From Anaerolineae bacterium (GTDB lineage: Bacteria; Chloroflexota; Anaerolineae; Aggregatilineales; UBA3940), in NCBI GenBank assembly GCA_034435015.1, contig DAOTYH010000052.1, forward strand, positions 2,835 through 66,834: a stretch of 64,000 nt of DNA, written 5' to 3'. Each line of letters opens with the position of its first letter. Position 1 is the stretch's first letter. The position numbers were made by a program, and so were the translations under genes. The notes beneath the pieces are model-generated. The model ran no database searches and was not told the DNA's origin. It was given only the letters and a program-made list of their open reading frames with translations. Positions 45,434 to 50,862 of the stretch are shown one piece after another.

Positions 45434-46414
45434 TTACTGTTCATAGCGGGGGTAGGCGGCGATCACAACAGGCAATGGCACGTAAGAGGGGATAAAGGCT
45501 CCCCCGCCCGGCAATGCGGCTATCAGCCCGCTAGATCGCCCGCCGTCCAGATTAAGCGCGACCTCAAGGTTCAGGCCTGACGCGGCCAGCCAGTGTGATA
45601 ACTCATAGAGCGAGAAAATCGGCAGGTCGCTCAACAGGACAACTACTCTCCCCTGTGTATCCAGCGCAATGACAGTGCGGCGGGCACGCTCGCCGGTCTC
45701 GGTCAAGTAGGTGGGCTGGCCGCCCGGCAACAGCAGGATAGGGTAAGACTCGACCGCCTGATCAAAGCGCATCCCGCGCGGGTTGTAATTCCCTCTTCCC
45801 AGTACGTGAATCTGTACTTCATCCTCTAGGACGGTGAACAGCCCGGCTACGCCGATAGTCCGTTCACCGTAGTTAAGCGGCGCACCGTATAATGTGCCAT
45901 CCGACACGATCCTCCCAACAGGTGTTCCCTCACCAGAGAAGAAGCCTCCGTTGAAAAGAATCGGGGCACCGGTGAGGGCCTGCCATTCATCTATCATGTG
46001 AGGCTCACGGCGGTCATAGTGGACCTGAAAGACCATCTGGTCTGGGTCGATCCGCAGAGCATAGACGTAGGAAAGCACCTCTGCGCCCGGGGTAGGGGCT
46101 GTAAGATAGGTCTGGCTGACTCCGGCCCGCAGTGTCTGCCACACCGGCGGAGTTGGCGTCAGGGTTGGCGTGCGGGTGTAGGTAGGAGTTAAGGGAGTGG
46201 AAGTAGAAGTCGGGCTGGTCGCTGGGGCGGGAGTAGAGGTTGTGGTCGCTGTAGGGGCAAGCGGGGACTGGGTAGGGGCTGGTATGGCGGGCGGCGCTGT
46301 CGGGTCGGCCCCGTGCGGGGGGCGGGTACAGCCTGCCAGCAACAGGAGAGCCATGAAAGAGAGAAAAAAATGTTTCTTCACCTGACTTGCCCGTGTTGAC
46401 TGAACGTCATACAA
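45434..46414 (-). CDS. secreted phosphodiester glycosidase-family (DUF2233) protein with a Pro/Thr linker
   Basis: Lipobox LLAGCT and a PT-rich linker. The C-terminal domain carries ..PILFNGGFF.. and ..ALNLDGGRSSG.., as in DUF2233/NAGPA-like proteins. Confidence 0.55.
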   Translation of the reverse strand: MYDVQSTRASQVKKHFFLSFMALLLLAGCTRPPHGADPTAPPAIPAPTQSPLAPTATTTSTPAPATSPTSTSTPLTPTYTRTPTLTPTPPVWQTLRAGVSQTYLTAPTPGAEVLSYVYALRIDPDQMVFQVHYDRREPHMIDEWQALTGAPILFNGGFFSGEGTPVGRIVSDGTLYGAPLNYGERTIGVAGLFTVLEDEVQIHVLGRGNYNPRGMRFDQAVESYPILLLPGGQPTYLTETGERARRTVIALDTQGRVVVLLSDLPIFSLYELSHWLAASGLNLEVALNLDGGRSSGLIAALPGGGAFIPSYVPLPVVIAAYPRYEQ

Positions 46415-46510
46415 TCACACAAGGGAGGGGGGTGTTTCGGGCACACTTGCAGTTTCGTATAACTCGTTGCATAATCTCAACACGACCTATTCCTACCCCA
46501 GTGGTATGTA

Positions 46511-49500
46511 ATGGCAGAGATCAGTCTTCGGGCTTACATAGAGTATATTCAAAATCGCCTGAACCAAGATGCCCTGACCGAGGTTGTGGCCCAGTGCCGT
46601 CATGTTCTTGAATCCTACCCCAAGTGCGTCGAGGTGTACAAGCTCCTGGCCCGTGCGCTGGTTCAGCAACAGGAATATCAGGACGCGCTTGACCTGTTCC
46701 AGCGTGTTTTAAGTGTTGACCCCAACGACTTCATCGCTCATGTTGGCATCAGTGACTGCTACCGCGAGACAGGCGCCATCGCGGAGGCGATCTGGCATCT
46801 TGAGCGTGCCTTTGAGCAAGTTCCCAGCAATCAGGACCTTCAGGACGAGATCAAGAAGCTGTACGTCCAACGCGGAGAAAAGCCGCCCCGTAAGATTCAG
46901 TTAACGGGCGGGGCGCTGGCCCGTCTGTACGTCAAAGGCAAACTCTATCCGCAGGCTATTCAGGAGTTAAACAAGGCTATCAACCGTGATCCTGAGCGCT
47001 TGGATTTGCAGGTTCTTCTGGCTGATGTGCTGTGGAACGCCCATCAGGAAGTTCAGGCCGGTAAGGTTGCGGCTGAGGTTCTTAAGCGTCTCCCTTACAG
47101 CGTTGATGCCAATCGTATTCTGGCCCAGCTATGGCTGAAGGCCGGACAACCTGCTGAGGCTCGTCCCTTCCTTGAGCGCGTCAAGGAGGTTGACCCTTAT
47201 CTGGGGTATCAGCTTGAACACAACGGCCAGAACGCGCCGGTGGATATGTTCCGCCTGATGATGCTGGACTTCGCGGCGGAGCGGTATGCGGCTGTCGGTG
47301 CGGCGGACTGGGTTTCACAAATTGGGGCAATTGAGAAGAAAGAAGGCGTTACAGGCCCTCTAAAGCCCAAATCCGGCCCTCTCCGTGCCACCGCTGATGC
47401 GCTTGCCTCTAGGGCGGCGGCTGAGCCTCTTCCTGAACCTGCCGCTGTCCCCTCGTGGTTGCAGGAGGTCTTCGGCCCGCCGGAGGGAGTGCCCCCGCCG
47501 CAGGAACAAGAGGCCGGCCTGCCCTCAGAACCGGGGAAGGTCTCTGCGCCCAGCCCCGAAGAGCCTGAATGGCTCCGTGAGGCTCTGGGCGAGGTCAAAG
47601 CGCCCGCCCCTCCAGAACCTGCCCCTGAGGGCCTGTCAGAGGAGAAGCCGGACTGGCTGAAGGAGGTCTTGGGCGAGACTGCGCCGCCTCCAGCGCCTGT
47701 GGGGCTGAGTCCTGTGGAATCTGCTCCTGCGCCTGACTGGCTGGCAGAGGTTCTCAATGAGGAGACACCTGCCCCTGCCCCGGTCGAGATGAAGAGTCAA
47801 CAGCCCGCCGAGGTCAAGGAGCGCGATGTGCCTGAGTGGCTGGATGAGATTTTAGAGCAAGGTCCAGCCCCCCTGCCTGCGAAGCAGGAAGAGGAGCCAG
47901 CTCCGGCTGTTGTCTCAGACGACTGGCTGGAACAGATTCTCTCCAGCGGGACGCCCGCCATAGTTGAGGCTGAGGAAGAGGCTGTCCCCTCTGCGGACGC
48001 AAAACTCCCCGGTTGGCTGGGGGAGATAACTGCACCGGCTGTTGCTCCTTCTGGAGCAGTTGAGTTACCGAGTGAATGGGGTGACCTAGAAACATGGGAC
48101 ACTCCGCCATTGGCAGTCGAAAGAGTTGAAGCACCGAAACCTAGCGAAGGCGAGGCAATGCCTGACTGGTTGCAGGCAGGGTCTGTTCAACCTCAGGGTA
48201 CGGCATCGGCGCTTCAGGAGGAAAAACACGTGGTACCACCAACTGGCGACGAAGAGATTCCCGATTGGCTGGCGGAAGGCGATCTAGATAGCGACGAGGC
48301 GATGGCTTGGCTGGAGGAGATTGCGGCCAAATACGATCCCACCTTTAAGGGGGAAACAGCCGAGAAGGAAGCCGCCGCCGCTCCAGCCCCATCCTCCGCT
48401 GAAGGGGAGGGCTTGCCAGACTGGCTGGTCGAAGAAACGCCGTCCAAGCCTGCACCGGAGCCTGCTCTACCTGTAGCGGAGCCTGCTCCGGCGGCAGAGG
48501 AATTACCAGACTGGCTGGTTGAAGAAGCGCCGTCCAAGCCCGCACCAGAGCCTGCGCCGGCCAAGGCAGAAGGCTTACCGGACTGGCTGAAGGCCGAAGC
48601 TCCACCGGAGCCTGCGCCGGCCAAGGCAGAAGGCTTACCGGACTGGCTGAAGGCCGAAGCTCCATCGGAGCCTATGCCGGCCAAGGCAGAGGGCCTGCCG
48701 GACTGGCTGAAGGCCGAAGCTCCGCCCGAACCTGCGCCGGCCAAGGCAGAAGGCTTACCGGACTGGCTGAAGGCCGAAGCTCCGCCGGAGCCTGCGCCGG
48801 CCAAGGCAGAGGCCTTGCCGGACTGGCTGAAGGCTGAAGCTCCAGAGCCGGCTGGCGAGGAATTAGACTGGTTGCGTAAGCCGCTGGAGGAACTGCCAGC
48901 CGCCGAGCCTGCTGAAGAACTGCCAAGCTGGTTGCTTGGCGAGGAGGAAAAGCCCTCACCGGCTGTAACCGAGCTGAAAGGTGAGGAGGCGCTCTCATGG
49001 CTTGACCGGCAGGTCGAGGCTCAGGGAGTCAGCCCAGAGGCTGTGATCTCTGAGGCATTGGCCCCTGAGAAGCTGCCGGTCGGGCCAGCCGTCGTGCCTC
49101 CGCCGGACGCTAAGGCTGAGCCGATTTCGGAAGAGGAACTGCCCGACTGGCTGAAGGGCGCAGGCGTCGAAGAGGAGATGGCGAAGGCTCTTGAAGCGCC
49201 GACTGCTGTCTCTGAGATGGCCGGGCTGGAACTGCCGGTTGAGAAAGAAGAACTGGAATGGTTGAATGCGGCCTTAAAGGCTGAGGAGGCTCCCGCTCTG
49301 AAGGCAGAGGAGGAAGAGGAGGAAGAGCTTCCGTCGTGGCTGAAGGCGCCGGTCGAGGAAGCACCCGCTCCTGCTCCCGCTCTGAAGGCAGAGGAGGAGG
49401 AAGAGCTTCCGTCGTGGCTGAAGGCGCCGGTTGAGGAAGCACCCGCTCCTGCTCCCGCTCTGAAGGCAGAGGAGGAAGAGGAAGAAGAGCTTCCGTCGTG

Positions 49501-50290
49501 GCTGAAGGCGCCGGTTGAGGAAGCACCCGCTCCTGCTCCCGCTCTGAAGGCGGAGGAGGAAGAGGAAGAAGAGCTTCCGTCATGGCTGAAGGCGCCGGTT
49601 GAGGAAGCGCCTGCCCCTGCCCTGAAGGCGGAGGAGGAAGAGGAGGAAGAGCTTCCGTCGTGGCTGAAGGCGCCGGTTGAGGAAGCGCCTGCCCCTGCCC
49701 TGAAGGCAGAGGAGGAAGAAGAGCTTCCGTCATGGCTGAAGGCGCCGGTTGAGGAAGCGCCTGCCCCGGCTCCGGCAGTCCCTGCGCCGCCGCCAGCCGT
49801 TGAGGAAGTGCCGCTCCCATCGTGGTTACAGGCTCCAGCAGAGCCGGTTGATGCAGGCCTAGAGGAGTTTCTCAAGACGACTGCCCCGGCCGCACCCCCT
49901 GCTCCTGAGCCGGCTATGCCGCCTGCTCCTGCCCCAGCCGTGCCGCCGGTGTCGAAGCCGGAGCCTGTGTCTGCGCCTGCGCCTGCCCCTGCCCCTGTTG
50001 CACCTCCAACACCTGTGGCGGCTGGGGAGGCTCTCCCTCAGCTTCAGACAGCACGTCAGCACCTGTCAGCCAACGAGATTGACGCGGCCCTTCAGGTCTA
50101 TGAGAGGCTGGTGGCGGGCGGCCAGTTGTTGGATGAGACCGCCCGTGACCTGAACGGCCTGCTCAAGTCGCTTGGGCCGCGTGCCAAGGCTGGGCCGCGT
50201 GTGCGCCGCCTGCTGGGCGATACCTTCATGGCTCAGGGCAAGTTGCAGGAAGCGTTGGAGATGTACCGTACCGCCCTGGACCAGTTGTAG
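46511..50290 (+). CDS. TPR-repeat protein with an acidic/proline-rich central region of about 900 aa carrying about 29 [LV]P[DSE]WL motifs
   Basis: N-terminal TPR-like helices of about 250 aa (..[38 protein letters not shown]..). The C-terminal 80 aa or so are also TPR-like (..ALQVYERLV....[22 protein letters not shown]). The middle is low complexity with a reiterated xPxWL motif. Confidence 0.8.
48541..48840 (+). repeat. five tandem, near-identical 60-bp in-frame repeats
   Basis: The unit GCNCCNGAGCCTGCGCCGGCCAAGGCAGAAGGCTTACCGGACTGGCTGAAGGCCGAAGCT ([20 protein letters not shown]) repeats with only a few substitutions per copy. More diverged copies lie upstream from about 48400. Confidence 0.9.
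49298..49775 (+). repeat. six tandem 78/84-bp in-frame repeats
   Basis: The unit encodes ALKAEEEEE(EE)[15 protein letters not shown](AP). Unit starts counted at about 49298, 49382, 49460, 49544, 49622 and 49700. Length variation comes from GAG/GAA and GCN-CCN codon gain or loss. Confidence 0.9.
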
Positions 50291-50409
50291 AAACACATCA
50301 CACCAGAGCAATTGACAGAGGCGGGTCATCACAGTGGCCCGCCTCTGCTGTGTGGACTCATCTGCCCTGCTGTTGCGAAACATCCGCAATCACATTCAGG
50401 AGGATCACT

Positions 50410-50862
50410 TTGGAGCGCACATTGGTTTTAGTCAAGCCCGATGGGGTTCAGCGTGGGCTGGTCGGCGAGGTGATCAGCCGTTTTGAGAGGCGCGGCCTGC
50501 GCCTGGCTGGAATGAAGTTCATGTGGATGAGCCGCGAGCTGGCGGCCCGTCACTATCATGAGCACGAGGGTAAACCCTTCTACGAGGGGCTGGTGAATTA
50601 CATTACATCGGGTCCCATTGTGGCGATGGTATGGGAAGGCAGACAGGCTATCGAAGTGGTACGCCAGACCATGGGCAAAACCAGACCCGCTGAGGCCGCG
50701 CCGGGGACTATCCGGGGTGATTTGGGGCTTGAGGTCGGGCGCAATGTCGTTCATGGTTCAGACGGCCCGGAGTCAGCCGCCTATGAGATCAGTCTGTTCT
50801 TCCGTGAGGATGAGCTGTTCTCGTGGAAGCGGGACATAGACCCGTGGGTCTTTGAAGGATAA
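50410..50862 (+). CDS. ndk: nucleoside-diphosphate kinase
   Basis: [25 protein letters not shown], ..[14 protein letters not shown].. and the active-site NVVHGSD. A TTG start at 50410 follows AGGAGGA. The ORF track extends to 50350. Confidence 0.9.

What the first reader, a model, noticed from the sequence alone, without database searches (positions are those of the whole stretch)
47400..49870. About 29 copies of a [LV]P[DSE]WL short motif embedded in an acidic, Pro/Ala-rich 800-900-aa linker between TPR ends
Seen in sequence: between N- and C-terminal TPR-like helices the protein has no predicted globular content. It reiterates a Trp-Leu motif in a constant context: an acidic residue, then L/V/I-P-D/S/E-W-L, then K/V/Q/A-E/A. 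Examples are [56 protein letters not shown] and [16 protein letters not shown] occurs twice, LPDWLKAE five times and LPSWLKAP six times, followed by LPSWLQAP. I count about 29. Spacers are E/A/P-rich and 12-45 aa long. This is the design of a multivalent short-linear-motif scaffold, with many identical docking sites on a disordered, negatively charged thread. TPR domains, which are classic peptide-motif receptors, sit at both ends. Possible roles are a self-associating or partner-clustering scaffold (cell envelope, division or condensate-type assembly). I know of no described function for this motif.
Basis: partly seen in the sequence, partly recalled or inferred. Interest (0 to 1): 0.6.

Follow-up and report, generated by a model that had tools for sequence, protein, structure and literature searches.

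The report
Tryptophan docking-motif scaffold with TPR caps
This gene encodes a real, conserved Chloroflexota protein with small folded TPR domains at both ends and, between them, a long, floppy, very acidic chain carrying 29 copies of a tiny tryptophan "docking tag" (PxWL); the same tag decorates a membrane protein of the same bacteria, which points to an undescribed bacterial recruitment system whose reader is still unknown.

Summary
ORF 46511-50290 (+) encodes 1259 aa, and exactly 29 Trp-Leu boxes lie between aa 316 and 1105.

- **Not chance:** 24 strict PxWL are seen against 0.57 expected.
- **Recent copies:** eleven boxes come from two in-frame tandem DNA arrays. A 95%-identical relative has one unit fewer in each.
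- **Conservation:** 119 homologs carry a median of 16 boxes. The box core is 76% conserved, the spacers 24% and the folded N-TPR 57%.
- **Coding:** linker dN/dS is about 0.1.
- **Ends:** both are true TPR folds (pLDDT 91-98).

New context:
- The same box forms arrays on a zinc-ribbon/transmembrane protein, here and across the phylum.
- Orthologous scaffolds in other Chloroflexota families (labels f19, f35, f56, f65) carry a different motif (PFSLxELGLSxEEIA).
- The gene is followed by ndk in 16 of 19 loci. In those families a Roadblock/LC7 gene lies between the two.
- Large arrays occur almost only in genomes that have the scaffold, and they persist in two genomes without Roadblock or its GTPase.

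Best reading: a multivalent docking scaffold. Its reader is most plausibly the family's own TPR caps, but this is unproven.

The scan has met this motif system before on other genomes. No paper or family model describes it.

The parts
46387..46415 (+). Promoter-like site upstream of the gene (TTGCCC-17-TACAAT)
   Evidence: Consensus scan. One site was found against 0.7 expected, so this is weak evidence only.
46511..50290 (+). Whole gene: a 1259-aa TPR-capped acidic scaffold with no TM segment and no signal peptide
   Evidence: ORF. More than 500 homologs. dN/dS 0.03-0.10 against a 95%-identical relative. No TM-like stretch.
46511..47260 (+). N-terminal TPR cap (aa 1-250, about 7 helical hairpins)
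   Evidence: Pfam TPR_2, TPR_19, TPR_14 and TPR_16 pass their cut-offs. AF2 pLDDT 96-98. Foldseek finds generic TPR superhelices.
47261..47350 (+). Post-TPR segment with the near-invariant W267 ('[10 protein letters not shown]'), a box-like element next to the cap
   Evidence: W267 is conserved in at least 90% of sequences. Block pLDDT is 92, 77 and 74 for aa 251-280. It is not conserved in two of three box-less scaffolds.
47351..50020 (+). Acidic Pro/Ala/Glu-rich disordered linker (aa 281-1170; net charge -143 over aa 281-1160)
   Evidence: Composition and charge. Spacers have pLDDT 40-63. Spacer columns are unconserved.
47444..49831 (+). Array of 29 PxWL boxes (W codons from 47456 to 49823); each box is a predicted short helix that starts just before the Trp
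48257..48346 (+). Conserved mid-linker element '[28 protein letters not shown]' (aa 583-612)
   Evidence: Family consensus 'PDWLxxGxLDxDDAxAWLExLAAK'. Related 'DAxAWLESLA' elements occur in orthologs.
48543..48844 (+). In-frame tandem DNA array, 5 x 60 bp (the [20 protein letters not shown] units)
   Evidence: TRF, 90% matches. The relative P0002 lacks exactly one 20-aa unit.
49289..49773 (+). In-frame tandem DNA array, about 6 x 78/84 bp (the [26 protein letters not shown] units)
   Evidence: TRF. The relative P0002 lacks one 28-aa unit.
50021..50287 (+). C-terminal TPR cap (aa 1171-1259, five helices, signature LGDxxMxxGxLQxALxxYxxAL)
   Evidence: AF2 pLDDT 91-98. 26 of 26 C-caps hit TPR models. 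The profile hits consensus TPR proteins in the PDB.
50319..50346 (+). 8-bp GC-rich hairpin (GAGGCGGG...CCCGCCTC) between the scaffold stop codon and ndk, with no U-tract
   Evidence: Read from the sequence. The terminator scan did not call it.
50410..50862 (+). ndk (nucleoside diphosphate kinase), the conserved downstream neighbour. The start is probably TTG at 50410, behind an AGGAGG site.
   Evidence: NDK of 150 aa in the relative. Synteny holds in 16 of 19 loci.

Best explanation
The gene encodes a cytoplasmic multivalent docking scaffold. It belongs to a phylum-wide, unstudied Chloroflexota family built as N-terminal TPR cap, long acidic disordered chain with arrayed short linear motifs, and C-terminal TPR cap.

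Shown:
- The protein is real and under selection.
- Both caps fold as TPR.
- The 29 PxWL boxes are the conserved elements of an otherwise free-drifting chain.
- Valency changes quickly by gain and loss of whole DNA repeat units.
- The same box is arrayed on the cytoplasmic tail of a zinc-ribbon/TM membrane protein, in this genome and across the phylum.
- The scaffold gene is syntenic with ndk. In the other Chloroflexota families examined a Roadblock/LC7 gene lies between the two.

Inferred:
- Each box folds into a mini-helix on binding one pocket of a common reader.
- The strong negative charge keeps the chain extended, so that many readers can load.
- The most parsimonious reader is the TPR cap of the scaffold family itself, acting in trans.
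- If so, scaffolds would dock on the membrane protein's tail and on each other. This would build a membrane-tethered mesh or condensate that concentrates clients such as the Roadblock/MglA-like GTPase pair and NDK-made GTP.
For: **Motif real and conserved:**
-.
- Core identity 0.76, against 0.24 for spacers.
- 24 PxWL observed, against 0.57 expected.

**Coding:**
- dN/dS 0.03-0.10.

**Caps:**
-.

**Boxes as helices:**
- Local pLDDT rises to 59-78.

**Second carrier in the same genome:**
- C45, 824 aa: Zn-ribbon, 9 boxes, TM, a domain of about 230 aa, TM.
- These are the only two proteins in the genome with at least 2 boxes.

**Library-wide profile search:**
- 826 clusters match.
- The best 149 are about 105 Zn-ribbon/TM proteins and about 36 TPR-capped proteins.

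- Zn-ribbon proteins of families f19, f35, f56 and f65 carry 23-63 boxes, although their scaffolds have none.

**Arrays track the scaffold:**
- Five near-complete f4 genomes lack the scaffold, and their Zn proteins have 1-3 boxes.
- The one f4 genome with the scaffold has about 10.
- In the class sample, arrays of at least 4 boxes occur only with the scaffold, except in one 88%-complete assembly.
- The two Roadblock-less f80 genomes keep 7-9 boxes on the scaffold and 4-6 on the Zn protein.

**Synteny:**
- Scaffold, then Roadblock, then ndk.
Against: - No direct evidence identifies any reader.
- AlphaFold did not dock a box on the N-cap or the C-cap with high confidence: box pLDDT is 59-78, and neither coordinates nor PAE were available.
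- Scaffolds with both caps but no boxes exist (G322, G326, G327), so the caps have a job that does not need the box.
- Two f27 genomes and G344 have the scaffold and a Zn-family protein without boxes.
- Phyletic counts come from related genomes and are not independent.
Confidence: 0.55

Rival explanations
1. The boxes are read by Roadblock/LC7 dimers, the MglB-like partners of a small GTPase. This would resemble the way the disordered dynein intermediate chain is read by LC7/Roadblock dimers. The scaffold would then be a multivalent platform for a GTPase-regulating module supplied with GTP by NDK.
For: - A Roadblock gene lies between the scaffold gene and ndk in loci of f19, f29, f35, f56 and f65.
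- Those Roadblocks are 80-93% identical across f19, f35, f56 and f65; the f29 one is 41-45% identical to them.
- Family-level presence of scaffold and Roadblock is almost the same in 301 genomes.
- In the class sample, 32 of 34 Roadblock-bearing genomes have the scaffold.
- Roadblock and a C51-type GTPase have identical distributions, 34 of 61.
- Array sizes are smaller in Roadblock-less genomes.
Against: - The two f80 genomes lack Roadblock and the GTPase, yet keep well-formed arrays on both carrier proteins.
- In this genome the two Roadblock genes are unlinked to the scaffold. They are only 30-34% identical to the scaffold-adjacent type (27-34% over both BLAST directions).
- Where Roadblock is adjacent, the scaffold itself carries a different motif (PFSL...LGLS). 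That motif may be the Roadblock ligand instead.
Confidence: 0.2
2. The boxes mimic the conserved C-terminal peptide of FtsZ ([DE]-[IV]-P-x-[FY]-L-[RK]) and bind the proteins that read it, such as FtsA, SepF or MinC. The scaffold and the membrane protein would then be division-site organisers or competitors.
For: - The box consensus E-[LIV]-P-D-W-L-[KR] has the same pattern as this genome's own FtsZ tail...NLDIPTFLRRR.
- The boxes are predicted to form a helix beginning just after the Pro.
- From memory, the FtsZ peptide forms a helix in its known complexes.
- Earlier notes of this scan made the same comparison, which is not independent evidence.
Against: - From general knowledge, not tested across genomes here, FtsZ and its readers are near-universal.
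- Arrays are small or missing in scaffold-less lineages (f4, f20) and in some scaffold-bearing ones.
- The aromatic residue is invariably Trp, not Phe or Tyr.
- The copies are internal, not C-terminal.
- No division gene lies in the conserved neighbourhood.
Confidence: 0.1
3. There is no dedicated reader. The Trp-Leu boxes would act as generic 'stickers' on an acidic 'spacer' chain, either for self-association or complex coacervation or for shallow insertion into the membrane interface. Alternatively the chain is mainly an entropic, negatively charged brush or spring between two TPR anchors.
For: - The aromatic residues are evenly spaced, mostly 20-38 aa apart.
- The net charge is extreme.
- Valency changes rapidly by repeat gain and loss.
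- Scaffolds with caps but no boxes exist.
Against: - Four consecutive positions (P, D, W, L) plus acidic residues upstream and K/R downstream are conserved across hundreds of proteins and two unrelated architectures. This is more specific than a sticker needs.
- A net charge of -143 argues against binding to anionic membranes and against homotypic collapse.
Confidence: 0.12
4. The array is a non-functional by-product of DNA repeat expansion in a low-complexity region, or it is not translated.
For: Two near-perfect tandem DNA arrays account for 11 of the 29 boxes.
Against: - Eighteen boxes lie outside the tandem arrays, in divergent contexts.
- Boxes are conserved at 30-60% overall protein identity.
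- dN/dS is about 0.1 in the linker.
- Indels against the close relative are whole in-frame units.
Confidence: 0.02

Closest known systems
Uncharacterised Chloroflexota 'tetratricopeptide repeat protein' family (TPR cap, acidic motif-array chain, TPR cap), annotated only generically in public records
   Same: - Orthologous N-cap (30-60% identity).
- C-cap signature LGDAYM..G.LQ.AL.
- Acidic disordered core with arrayed motifs.
- ndk downstream.
- This protein is a member.
   Different: - Members from families f19, f35, f56 and f65 carry PFSLxELGLSxEEIA arrays and a Sigma70_r1_1-like domain instead of PxWL boxes. They also have a Roadblock gene inserted before ndk.
- No member has been studied. 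No paper was found.
Zinc-ribbon / PxWL-array / TM membrane proteins of Chloroflexota (uncharacterised)
   Same: The same box consensus on an acidic or Pro-rich cytoplasmic chain, in the same genomes.
   Different: An unrelated architecture: N-terminal Zn ribbon, two TM segments flanking an outside domain of about 230 aa, and no TPR.
Pex5 (eukaryotic peroxisomal import receptor), from memory: a disordered N-terminal half with several WxxxF/Y mini-helix motifs read by Pex14/Pex13, plus a C-terminal TPR domain
   Same: - Trp-centred mini-helix motifs arrayed on a disordered chain, in one polypeptide with a TPR domain.
- Pex5 TPRs are among the structural matches of the N-cap.
   Different: - No homology beyond the generic TPR fold.
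- Pex5 has fewer motifs and is not hyper-acidic.
- In Pex5 the TPR binds a different ligand (PTS1), not the protein's own motifs.
Endocytic adaptor arrays (Eps15 DPF repeats, epsin DPW repeats read by the AP-2 appendage) and GW182 GW repeats read by Argonaute, from memory
   Same: Many copies of a 3-4-residue aromatic motif on a long disordered chain, giving avidity and clustering.
   Different: These are eukaryotic and use different motifs with known readers.
Kinesin light chain TPR reading 'W-acidic' cargo motifs, from memory
   Same: A precedent for a TPR groove that reads a Trp in an acidic context. It supports the plausibility of TPR caps as reader.
   Different: The motif there is [LM]-x-W-[DE], with no Pro-Asp N-cap and no Leu after the Trp. 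Binding was not tested here.
FtsZ C-terminal linker plus conserved C-terminal peptide
   Same: The pattern acidic-aliphatic-Pro-x-aromatic-Leu-basic at the end of a disordered linker. This genome's own FtsZ ends in DIPTFLRRR.
   Different: FtsZ has a single terminal copy against 29 internal ones here, and Phe against an invariant Trp. The array distribution does not follow FtsZ.
Polar hub proteins HubP/FimV and PopZ, from memory
   Same: Acidic, repeat-rich cytoplasmic regions combined with TPR-like or helical end modules that recruit several clients.
   Different: - No LysM domain and no TM segment.
- No FimV C-terminal model among the 25 NCBIfam hits listed of 27.
- The repeats are unrelated.
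Dynein intermediate chain with LC8/Tctex/LC7(Roadblock) light chains, and the MglA/MglB polarity module, from memory and PMC4316618
   Same: A disordered chain read by small dimeric light chains, including Roadblock. Roadblock and a small GTPase co-occur with this family.
   Different: There is no evidence that Roadblock binds the boxes. The two f80 genomes keep their arrays without it.

Membership tests
TPR repeat proteins (Pfam clan TPR) | N-terminal region matches TPR models above the curated cut-offs and folds as stacked helical hairpins | tested here: met
   TPR_2 66 bits against a cut-off of 27, TPR_19 67.5 against 25, and others. AF2 gives 14 helices with pLDDT 96-98. Foldseek finds CTPR, OGT and Pex5.
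TPR repeat proteins (Pfam clan TPR) | C-terminal region is also TPR | tested here: met
   For the 85-aa C-cap, TPR_14 scores 30.8 against 23.5 and TPR_11 27.9 against 26.8. 26 of 26 family C-caps hit TPR models. Five helices with pLDDT 91-98. PDB profile hits to consensus TPR.
Chloroflexota TPR-capped acidic motif-array scaffold family (uncharacterised) | Orthologous N-cap, C-cap with the LGDAYM..G.LQ.AL signature, an acidic disordered core carrying arrayed short motifs, and ndk downstream | tested here: met
PxWL-box carriers (operational class defined here and in earlier notes of this scan) | At least 4 copies of [ED]-x-P-x-W-[LM] in a disordered, non-LRR context | tested here: met
   29 boxes. 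The profile built from 133 units retrieves the close relative P0002 with 23 stretches. LRR proteins with LPDWL in their repeat consensus were excluded as look-alikes.
XrtA/PEP-CTERM TPR protein PrsT (TIGR02917) and other NCBIfam TPR equivalogs (LapB, MamA, PilW, PgaA) | Score above the curated equivalog cut-off | tested here: not met
   The best score is 68.3 bits against a cut-off of 312.2. All other hits fall far below their cut-offs.
FimV/HubP polar hub proteins | N-terminal LysM domain, a TM segment and the FimV C-terminal TPR-like motif | tested here: not met
   The protein starts directly with TPR. There is no TM-like stretch. No LysM or FimV model appears among the listed Pfam and NCBIfam hits (25 of 31 and 25 of 27 hits were shown).
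FtsZ-type C-terminal peptide | A single conserved peptide at the extreme C-terminus of an FtsZ GTPase, read by FtsA, SepF or ZipA | tested here: not met
   The boxes are internal, number 29, and sit in a non-FtsZ protein. The genome's FtsZ is a separate gene. Binding to FtsZ partners cannot be tested with these tools.
Pex5-like receptors | WxxxF/Y motifs and a PTS1-binding TPR domain with sequence homology | tested here: not met
   The box is PxWL with no aromatic residue at +4. Only fold-level TPR similarity was found.
Reader-ligand pair 'TPR cap binds PxWL box' | A physical interaction between cap and box | tested here: inconclusive
   In cis AF2 models the boxes reach only pLDDT 59-78, and no coordinates or PAE were returned. 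Phyletic data are compatible.

The most novel reading that the evidence does not exclude
Chloroflexota have a phylum-wide short-linear-motif recruitment system of a kind so far described mainly in eukaryotes. Its ligand is a PxWL mini-helix box, displayed in tens of copies on a membrane anchor (the Zn-ribbon/TM protein) and, in Anaerolineae, on the soluble scaffold itself. The box would be read by the scaffold's own TPR caps. The result would be a membrane-tethered multivalent mesh or condensate that positions an MglA-like GTPase, its Roadblock partner and NDK, for example at the poles or septa of the filament cells. Motif type (PxWL or PFSL-LGLS) would have been swapped on the scaffold between Chloroflexota lineages.
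Probability: 0.3. Interest if true: 0.8.

Novelty: new variant of a known kind. Interest (0 to 1): 0.62.

Why it matters
Arrays of short linear motifs on long disordered chains are a hallmark of eukaryotic cell organisation, for example in endocytic adaptors, Pex5 and GW182. Few clear bacterial examples exist.

Here one 4-6-residue box is conserved better than the folded domains around it. It appears on two unrelated protein families across a whole phylum of filamentous bacteria. It sits in a conserved gene neighbourhood with NDK and, in other Chloroflexota families, a Roadblock/LC7 gene.

This gives a concrete and cheap entry point: a 10-residue peptide can be used as bait. The target is an unknown piece of Chloroflexota cell biology, possibly cell polarity, septation or gliding, in a phylum with very few studied cytoskeletal or polarity factors.

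It would also be a natural system for studying how valency evolves by repeat gain and loss, and how a scaffold swaps its motif while keeping its caps.

Tried and rejected
- **Pfam and NCBIfam on the whole protein:** only generic TPR hits, and none for the linker.
- **Literature:** 'PDWL' anywhere in the text, Roadblock + Chloroflexi + NDK, and SLiM/tryptophan/multivalent/Chloroflex terms gave nothing relevant.
- **Foldseek of the N-cap model against the PDB:** only generic TPR superhelices, with no specific family.
- **AF2 as an in-cis docking test:** N-cap plus 6 boxes, and C-cap plus 3 boxes. Boxes stayed at pLDDT 59-78 and no coordinates were returned, so this was inconclusive.
the top 149 library hits of the box profile are all Zn-ribbon/TM, TPR-capped or unclassifiable fragments. 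None is fused to Roadblock, NDK, a GTPase or a division protein.
- **Single boxes on other proteins of this genome:** none was convincing.
- **Arrays outside Chloroflexota:** the DNA-pattern hits in Actinomycetota and Nitrospirota are leucine-rich repeats whose consensus happens to contain LPDWL. The rest are chance or out of frame.
- **Roadblock as obligatory reader:** rejected, because the two f80 genomes keep their arrays without it.
- **Tool failures:** two large alignments failed internally and one was too large for folding. Smaller sets were used instead.

Full report
**1. What is there**

The finding lies inside one ORF, window 46511-50290 on the + strand, 1259 aa. The protein has 35 Trp. 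Exactly 29 of them are followed by Leu and lie between aa 316 and 1105.

The linker analysed here (aa 281-1160, 880 aa) has a net charge of -143. The protein as a whole is dominated by Ala, Glu and Pro. The linker holds 24 strict PxWL. Twenty thousand shuffles of the same residues gave a mean of 0.57 and never more than 5.

Eleven of the boxes are recent copies. Tandem Repeats Finder finds an in-frame 5 x 60-bp array (48543-48844) and an array of about 6 x 78/84 bp (49289-49773). The other 18 boxes sit in different contexts.

**2. It is a real, selected protein**

A word-seeded HMMER search found more than 500 homologs. Where they are named at all, they are called only 'tetratricopeptide repeat protein', from Anaerolineae or Chloroflexota MAGs.

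- All 119 listed homologs have arrays of PxW[LIVM]: median 16, and 112 of 119 have at least 10.
- A logo from 2942 linker Trp residues of 118 homologs reads [ED][ED]-[LAV]-P(64%)-D(52%)-W-L(75%)-[KR]-[ED].
- The family consensus is a string of 'PDWL' separated by unconserved positions.
- In aligned columns, the P-x-W-L core matches the window residue in 76% of sequences. Spacers match in 24% and the folded N-terminal domain in 57%.
- Against a 95%-identical relative (P0002, locus L206), dN/dS is 0.03 in the N-cap, 0.10 in spacers, 0.08 in boxes and 0.06 in the C-cap. The linker is therefore translated and constrained.
- That relative differs by clean deletions of one 20-aa unit and one 28-aa unit inside the two tandem arrays. 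Valency evolves by whole-unit gain and loss.

**3. Anatomy**

- **N-cap.** It hits many TPR models above their cut-offs. AlphaFold2 with a 65-sequence alignment gives about seven hairpins at pLDDT 96-98. Foldseek finds only generic TPR superhelices such as consensus TPR, OGT and Pex5.
- **Post-TPR segment.** It carries the near-invariant W267 ('ADWV') and is modelled with block pLDDT 92, 77 and 74 over aa 251-280.
- **Boxes.** Each box in aa 300-480 is predicted as a short helix starting one residue before the Trp. Box pLDDT is 59-75 and spacer pLDDT 40-50.
- **C-cap.** The last 88 residues or so form five helices at pLDDT 91-98. All 26 C-caps tested hit TPR models, and their profile hits consensus TPR proteins in the PDB.
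- **Topology.** There is no TM-like stretch and no signal peptide, so the protein is cytoplasmic.
- **Mid-linker helix.** A conserved 'DDAxAWLExLAAK' element (within aa 583-612 here) is the only other conserved feature of the linker.

**4. The same box on other proteins**

A six-frame scan of the whole 3.3-Mb assembly finds only one other protein with at least two boxes. It is an 824-aa protein on contig C45. It has an N-terminal zinc ribbon (PF13240), nine strict [IVL]PDWL boxes plus several looser DWL sites in a Pro-rich chain, a TM segment preceded by RRRR, a domain of about 230 aa, and a C-terminal TM segment. No convincing single boxes occur elsewhere in the genome.

A profile of 133 box units was searched against 1.84 billion representative proteins. 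It found 826 clusters at E <= 0.001. Of the best 149:
- about 105 belong to this Zn-ribbon/TM family;
- about 36 belong to the TPR-capped family, including 15 that have only the C-cap and start directly with the array;
- 8 are unclassifiable fragments with no Pfam domain.

None is fused to a domain that would name a reader.

A DNA-pattern scan of one genome per prokaryotic species returned mostly Anaerolineae and other Chloroflexota. The hits in Actinomycetota and a Nitrospirota MAG are leucine-rich repeats with LPDWL in the LRR consensus. They are a look-alike, not the same thing. Among the Chloroflexota hits there are further minor architectures, for example a TM protein with four boxes and a C-terminal region that reads like a DUF4332-type helix-hairpin-helix domain (not run against Pfam), and giant arrays with a distinct N-terminus.

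**5. The family across the phylum**

- **Distribution.** N-cap orthologs occur in 121 of 301 sampled Chloroflexota genomes.
- **A different motif elsewhere.** In several non-Anaerolineae families (f19, f35, f56, f65) the orthologs keep both caps and an acidic chain of up to 2300 aa, but they have no PxWL. Instead they carry arrays of PFSLxELGLSxEEIAxL and a Sigma70_r1_1-like domain. In the two f19 and f35 orthologs scanned, that domain (PF03979) scores above its cut-off.
- **The membrane protein keeps the box.** The Zn-ribbon/TM proteins of those same genomes carry 23-63 PxWL boxes. Whatever reads the box is therefore phylum-wide, and the scaffold has changed its own motif between lineages.

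**6. Neighbourhood**

Neighbours were clustered in 18 fetched loci plus the window.
- ndk lies immediately downstream on the same strand in 16 of 19 loci.
- A Roadblock/LC7 gene of about 115-135 aa lies between scaffold and ndk in the loci of f19, f29, f35, f56 and f65. It is absent from that position in Anaerolineae family f3 and in the window.
- The adjacent Roadblocks are 80-93% identical among f19, f35, f56 and f65.
- The two Roadblock genes of this genome lie elsewhere and are only 30-34% identical to them.
- In the window, an 8-bp GC hairpin without a U-tract lies between the scaffold stop codon and the probable TTG start of ndk at 50410, which has an AGGAGG site.

**7. Who could read the box? 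Phyletic tests**

(a) Family-level presence of scaffold and Roadblock in the 301-genome sample is nearly the same. Within family f4, only G234 has both. Its Zn protein has about 10 boxes. Five other near-complete f4 genomes lack both, and their Zn proteins have 1-3.

(b) In a second sample of 61 genomes of the class, Roadblock and a C51-type small GTPase have identical distributions (34 of 61), and the scaffold occurs in 41. The cross-table of Roadblock against scaffold is:

| | Scaffold present | Scaffold absent |
|---|---|---|
| Roadblock present | 32 | 2 |
| Roadblock absent | 9 | 18 |

(c) Among the nine genomes with a scaffold but no Roadblock:
- the two f80 genomes keep 7-9 good boxes on the scaffold and 4-6 on the Zn protein;
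- G304 keeps 4-5 on the scaffold;
- three genomes (G322, G326, G327) have short scaffolds of 433-503 aa with both caps and no boxes, and the two of them with a Zn-family homolog (G326, G327) have 0-1 boxes there.

(d) Zn-protein arrays of at least 4 boxes were seen only in genomes with the scaffold. The one exception is an 88%-complete assembly of 940 contigs.

These counts come from related genomes and are not independent. Taken at face value, they say three things:
- Roadblock and the GTPase are frequent companions but not the obligatory reader.
- Boxes on the two carriers come and go together.
- The scaffold, and so its TPR caps, is the only component found so far that is always present where arrays are.

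The caps also exist without boxes, so they must have another role as well.

As a weak lead, five positions are conserved in box-bearing lineages but changed in most or all of the three box-less scaffolds: H31, G143, Q148, N201 and W267.

**8. Mechanism**

The best-supported reading is a multivalent docking scaffold. Many identical mini-helix ligands sit on an extended polyanionic chain, with valency tuned by repeat gain and loss.

I rank the TPR caps, acting in trans, as the most likely reader, at roughly 35-40%. The reasons are the phyletic pattern and the precedent, from memory, of TPR grooves reading Trp in acidic contexts (kinesin light chain). If this is right, scaffolds would bind the membrane protein's tail and each other.

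- Roadblock dimers are the main rival, at about 20%. The precedent is the reading of the dynein intermediate chain by LC7.
- The FtsZ-tail mimicry idea rests on a real pattern similarity with this genome's FtsZ tail DIPTFLRRR. It fits the array distribution poorly, and I put it at about 10%.
- A reader-less sticker or brush model is at about 12%.

**9. Comparison, novelty and earlier notes**

No Pfam or NCBIfam model covers the box or the linker. No paper in the held library mentions the box or turned up in two further term searches.

Functionally the closest known designs are eukaryotic: Pex5, Eps15/epsin and GW182. Among bacteria the closest are the acidic hub proteins HubP/FimV and PopZ. 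The protein is not a member of any of these.

Earlier notes of this scan described the same box on Zn-ribbon proteins and on TPR-capped giants in other genomes, including the Roadblock and NDK adjacency. Those are AI notes, not evidence. The synteny and the box sharing were re-derived here from sequence.

This report adds the following:
- the motif swap on the scaffold, set against the persistence of PxWL on the membrane protein;
- the C-cap-only subfamily;
- the co-variation of box number on the two carriers;
- the finding that arrays survive without Roadblock or the GTPase, but were almost never seen without the scaffold.

**Verdict.** This is a real, conserved, uncharacterised system. It is a new variant of the multivalent-motif scaffold kind, and its reader is unidentified.

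Noticed in passing
L046-L049 (orthologous scaffolds in other Chloroflexota families; e.g. L047:564-5834): Orthologs with the same TPR caps carry arrays of a different motif, PFSLxELGLSxEEIAxL, which gives weak DUF1127-like hits. They also have a Sigma70_r1_1-like domain in the middle of the acidic chain; PF03979 scored above its cut-off in the two orthologs scanned (f19, f35).
   Followed up: partly
L064, L066-L071 (gene between scaffold and ndk): The scaffold-adjacent Roadblock/LC7 proteins are 80-93% identical across four families (f19, f35, f56, f65), far more conserved than the scaffold caps. The two Roadblocks of this genome (C84:1170-1547 and C45 near 109.9 kb) are 76% identical to each other but only 30-34% identical to the adjacent type.
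   Followed up: partly
Own genome, contig C51:79963-80508 (L194) and neighbours: A small GTPase (70-80% identical across most of the Anaerolineae genomes that have it) lies next to a 263-aa protein that reads like a DUF4388-type protein and a protein that reads like a HEAT-repeat protein; neither was run against Pfam. In 61 genomes its presence or absence is identical to that of Roadblock (34 of 61), and in several genomes the two genes are adjacent.
   Followed up: partly
Own genome, contig C84:274-2557 (L072): A Roadblock gene is flanked by a protein whose sequence looks like a V4R domain behind a Lys/Glu-rich N-terminal tail, and by a receiver-domain protein. This annotation is from reading the sequence only. 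It is a possible small signalling cassette.
   Followed up: no
P0126, P0151, P0154 and 12 others; L100: A third soluble family has a PxWL array plus the C-terminal TPR cap but no N-terminal TPR. These proteins start 'M..EIESPVDGPTPDWM' and contain a conserved 'SDLERLLAEEGIDL' element.
   Followed up: partly
L110, L112, L079, L086: Leucine-rich-repeat proteins of Actinophytocola, a Streptosporangiaceae strain and a Nitrospirota MAG have LPDWL inside the LRR consensus (LTxLPDWLGxLTxL). They are false positives for any PDWL motif search.
   Followed up: yes
window 50319-50346 and 50398-50412: A GC-rich 8-bp hairpin without a U-tract lies between the scaffold stop codon and ndk. ndk most likely starts at TTG 50410 behind AGGAGG, not at the GTG at 50350 of the longest ORF.
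   Followed up: partly
L210-L212 (G322, G326, G327): Short scaffolds (433-503 aa) have both TPR caps but no boxes. Compared with box-bearing lineages they differ at H31, G143, Q148, N201 and W267, which are candidate positions for a box-binding surface.
   Followed up: partly
L054-L062 (Anaerolineae f3 loci): In family f3 the scaffold gene is preceded by what looks, from reading the sequence, like a pyrimidine-nucleoside phosphorylase gene, and is followed by ndk. It therefore sits between two nucleotide-metabolism genes. The thpR gene of the window neighbourhood also recurs nearby in 7 of these loci.
   Followed up: no
L140 (Anaerolinea sp. MAG): A 506-aa membrane protein has four ELPDWL[QN]E boxes followed by a C-terminal region that reads like a DUF4332-type helix-hairpin-helix domain (not run against Pfam). 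This is a further minor architecture carrying the box.
   Followed up: no
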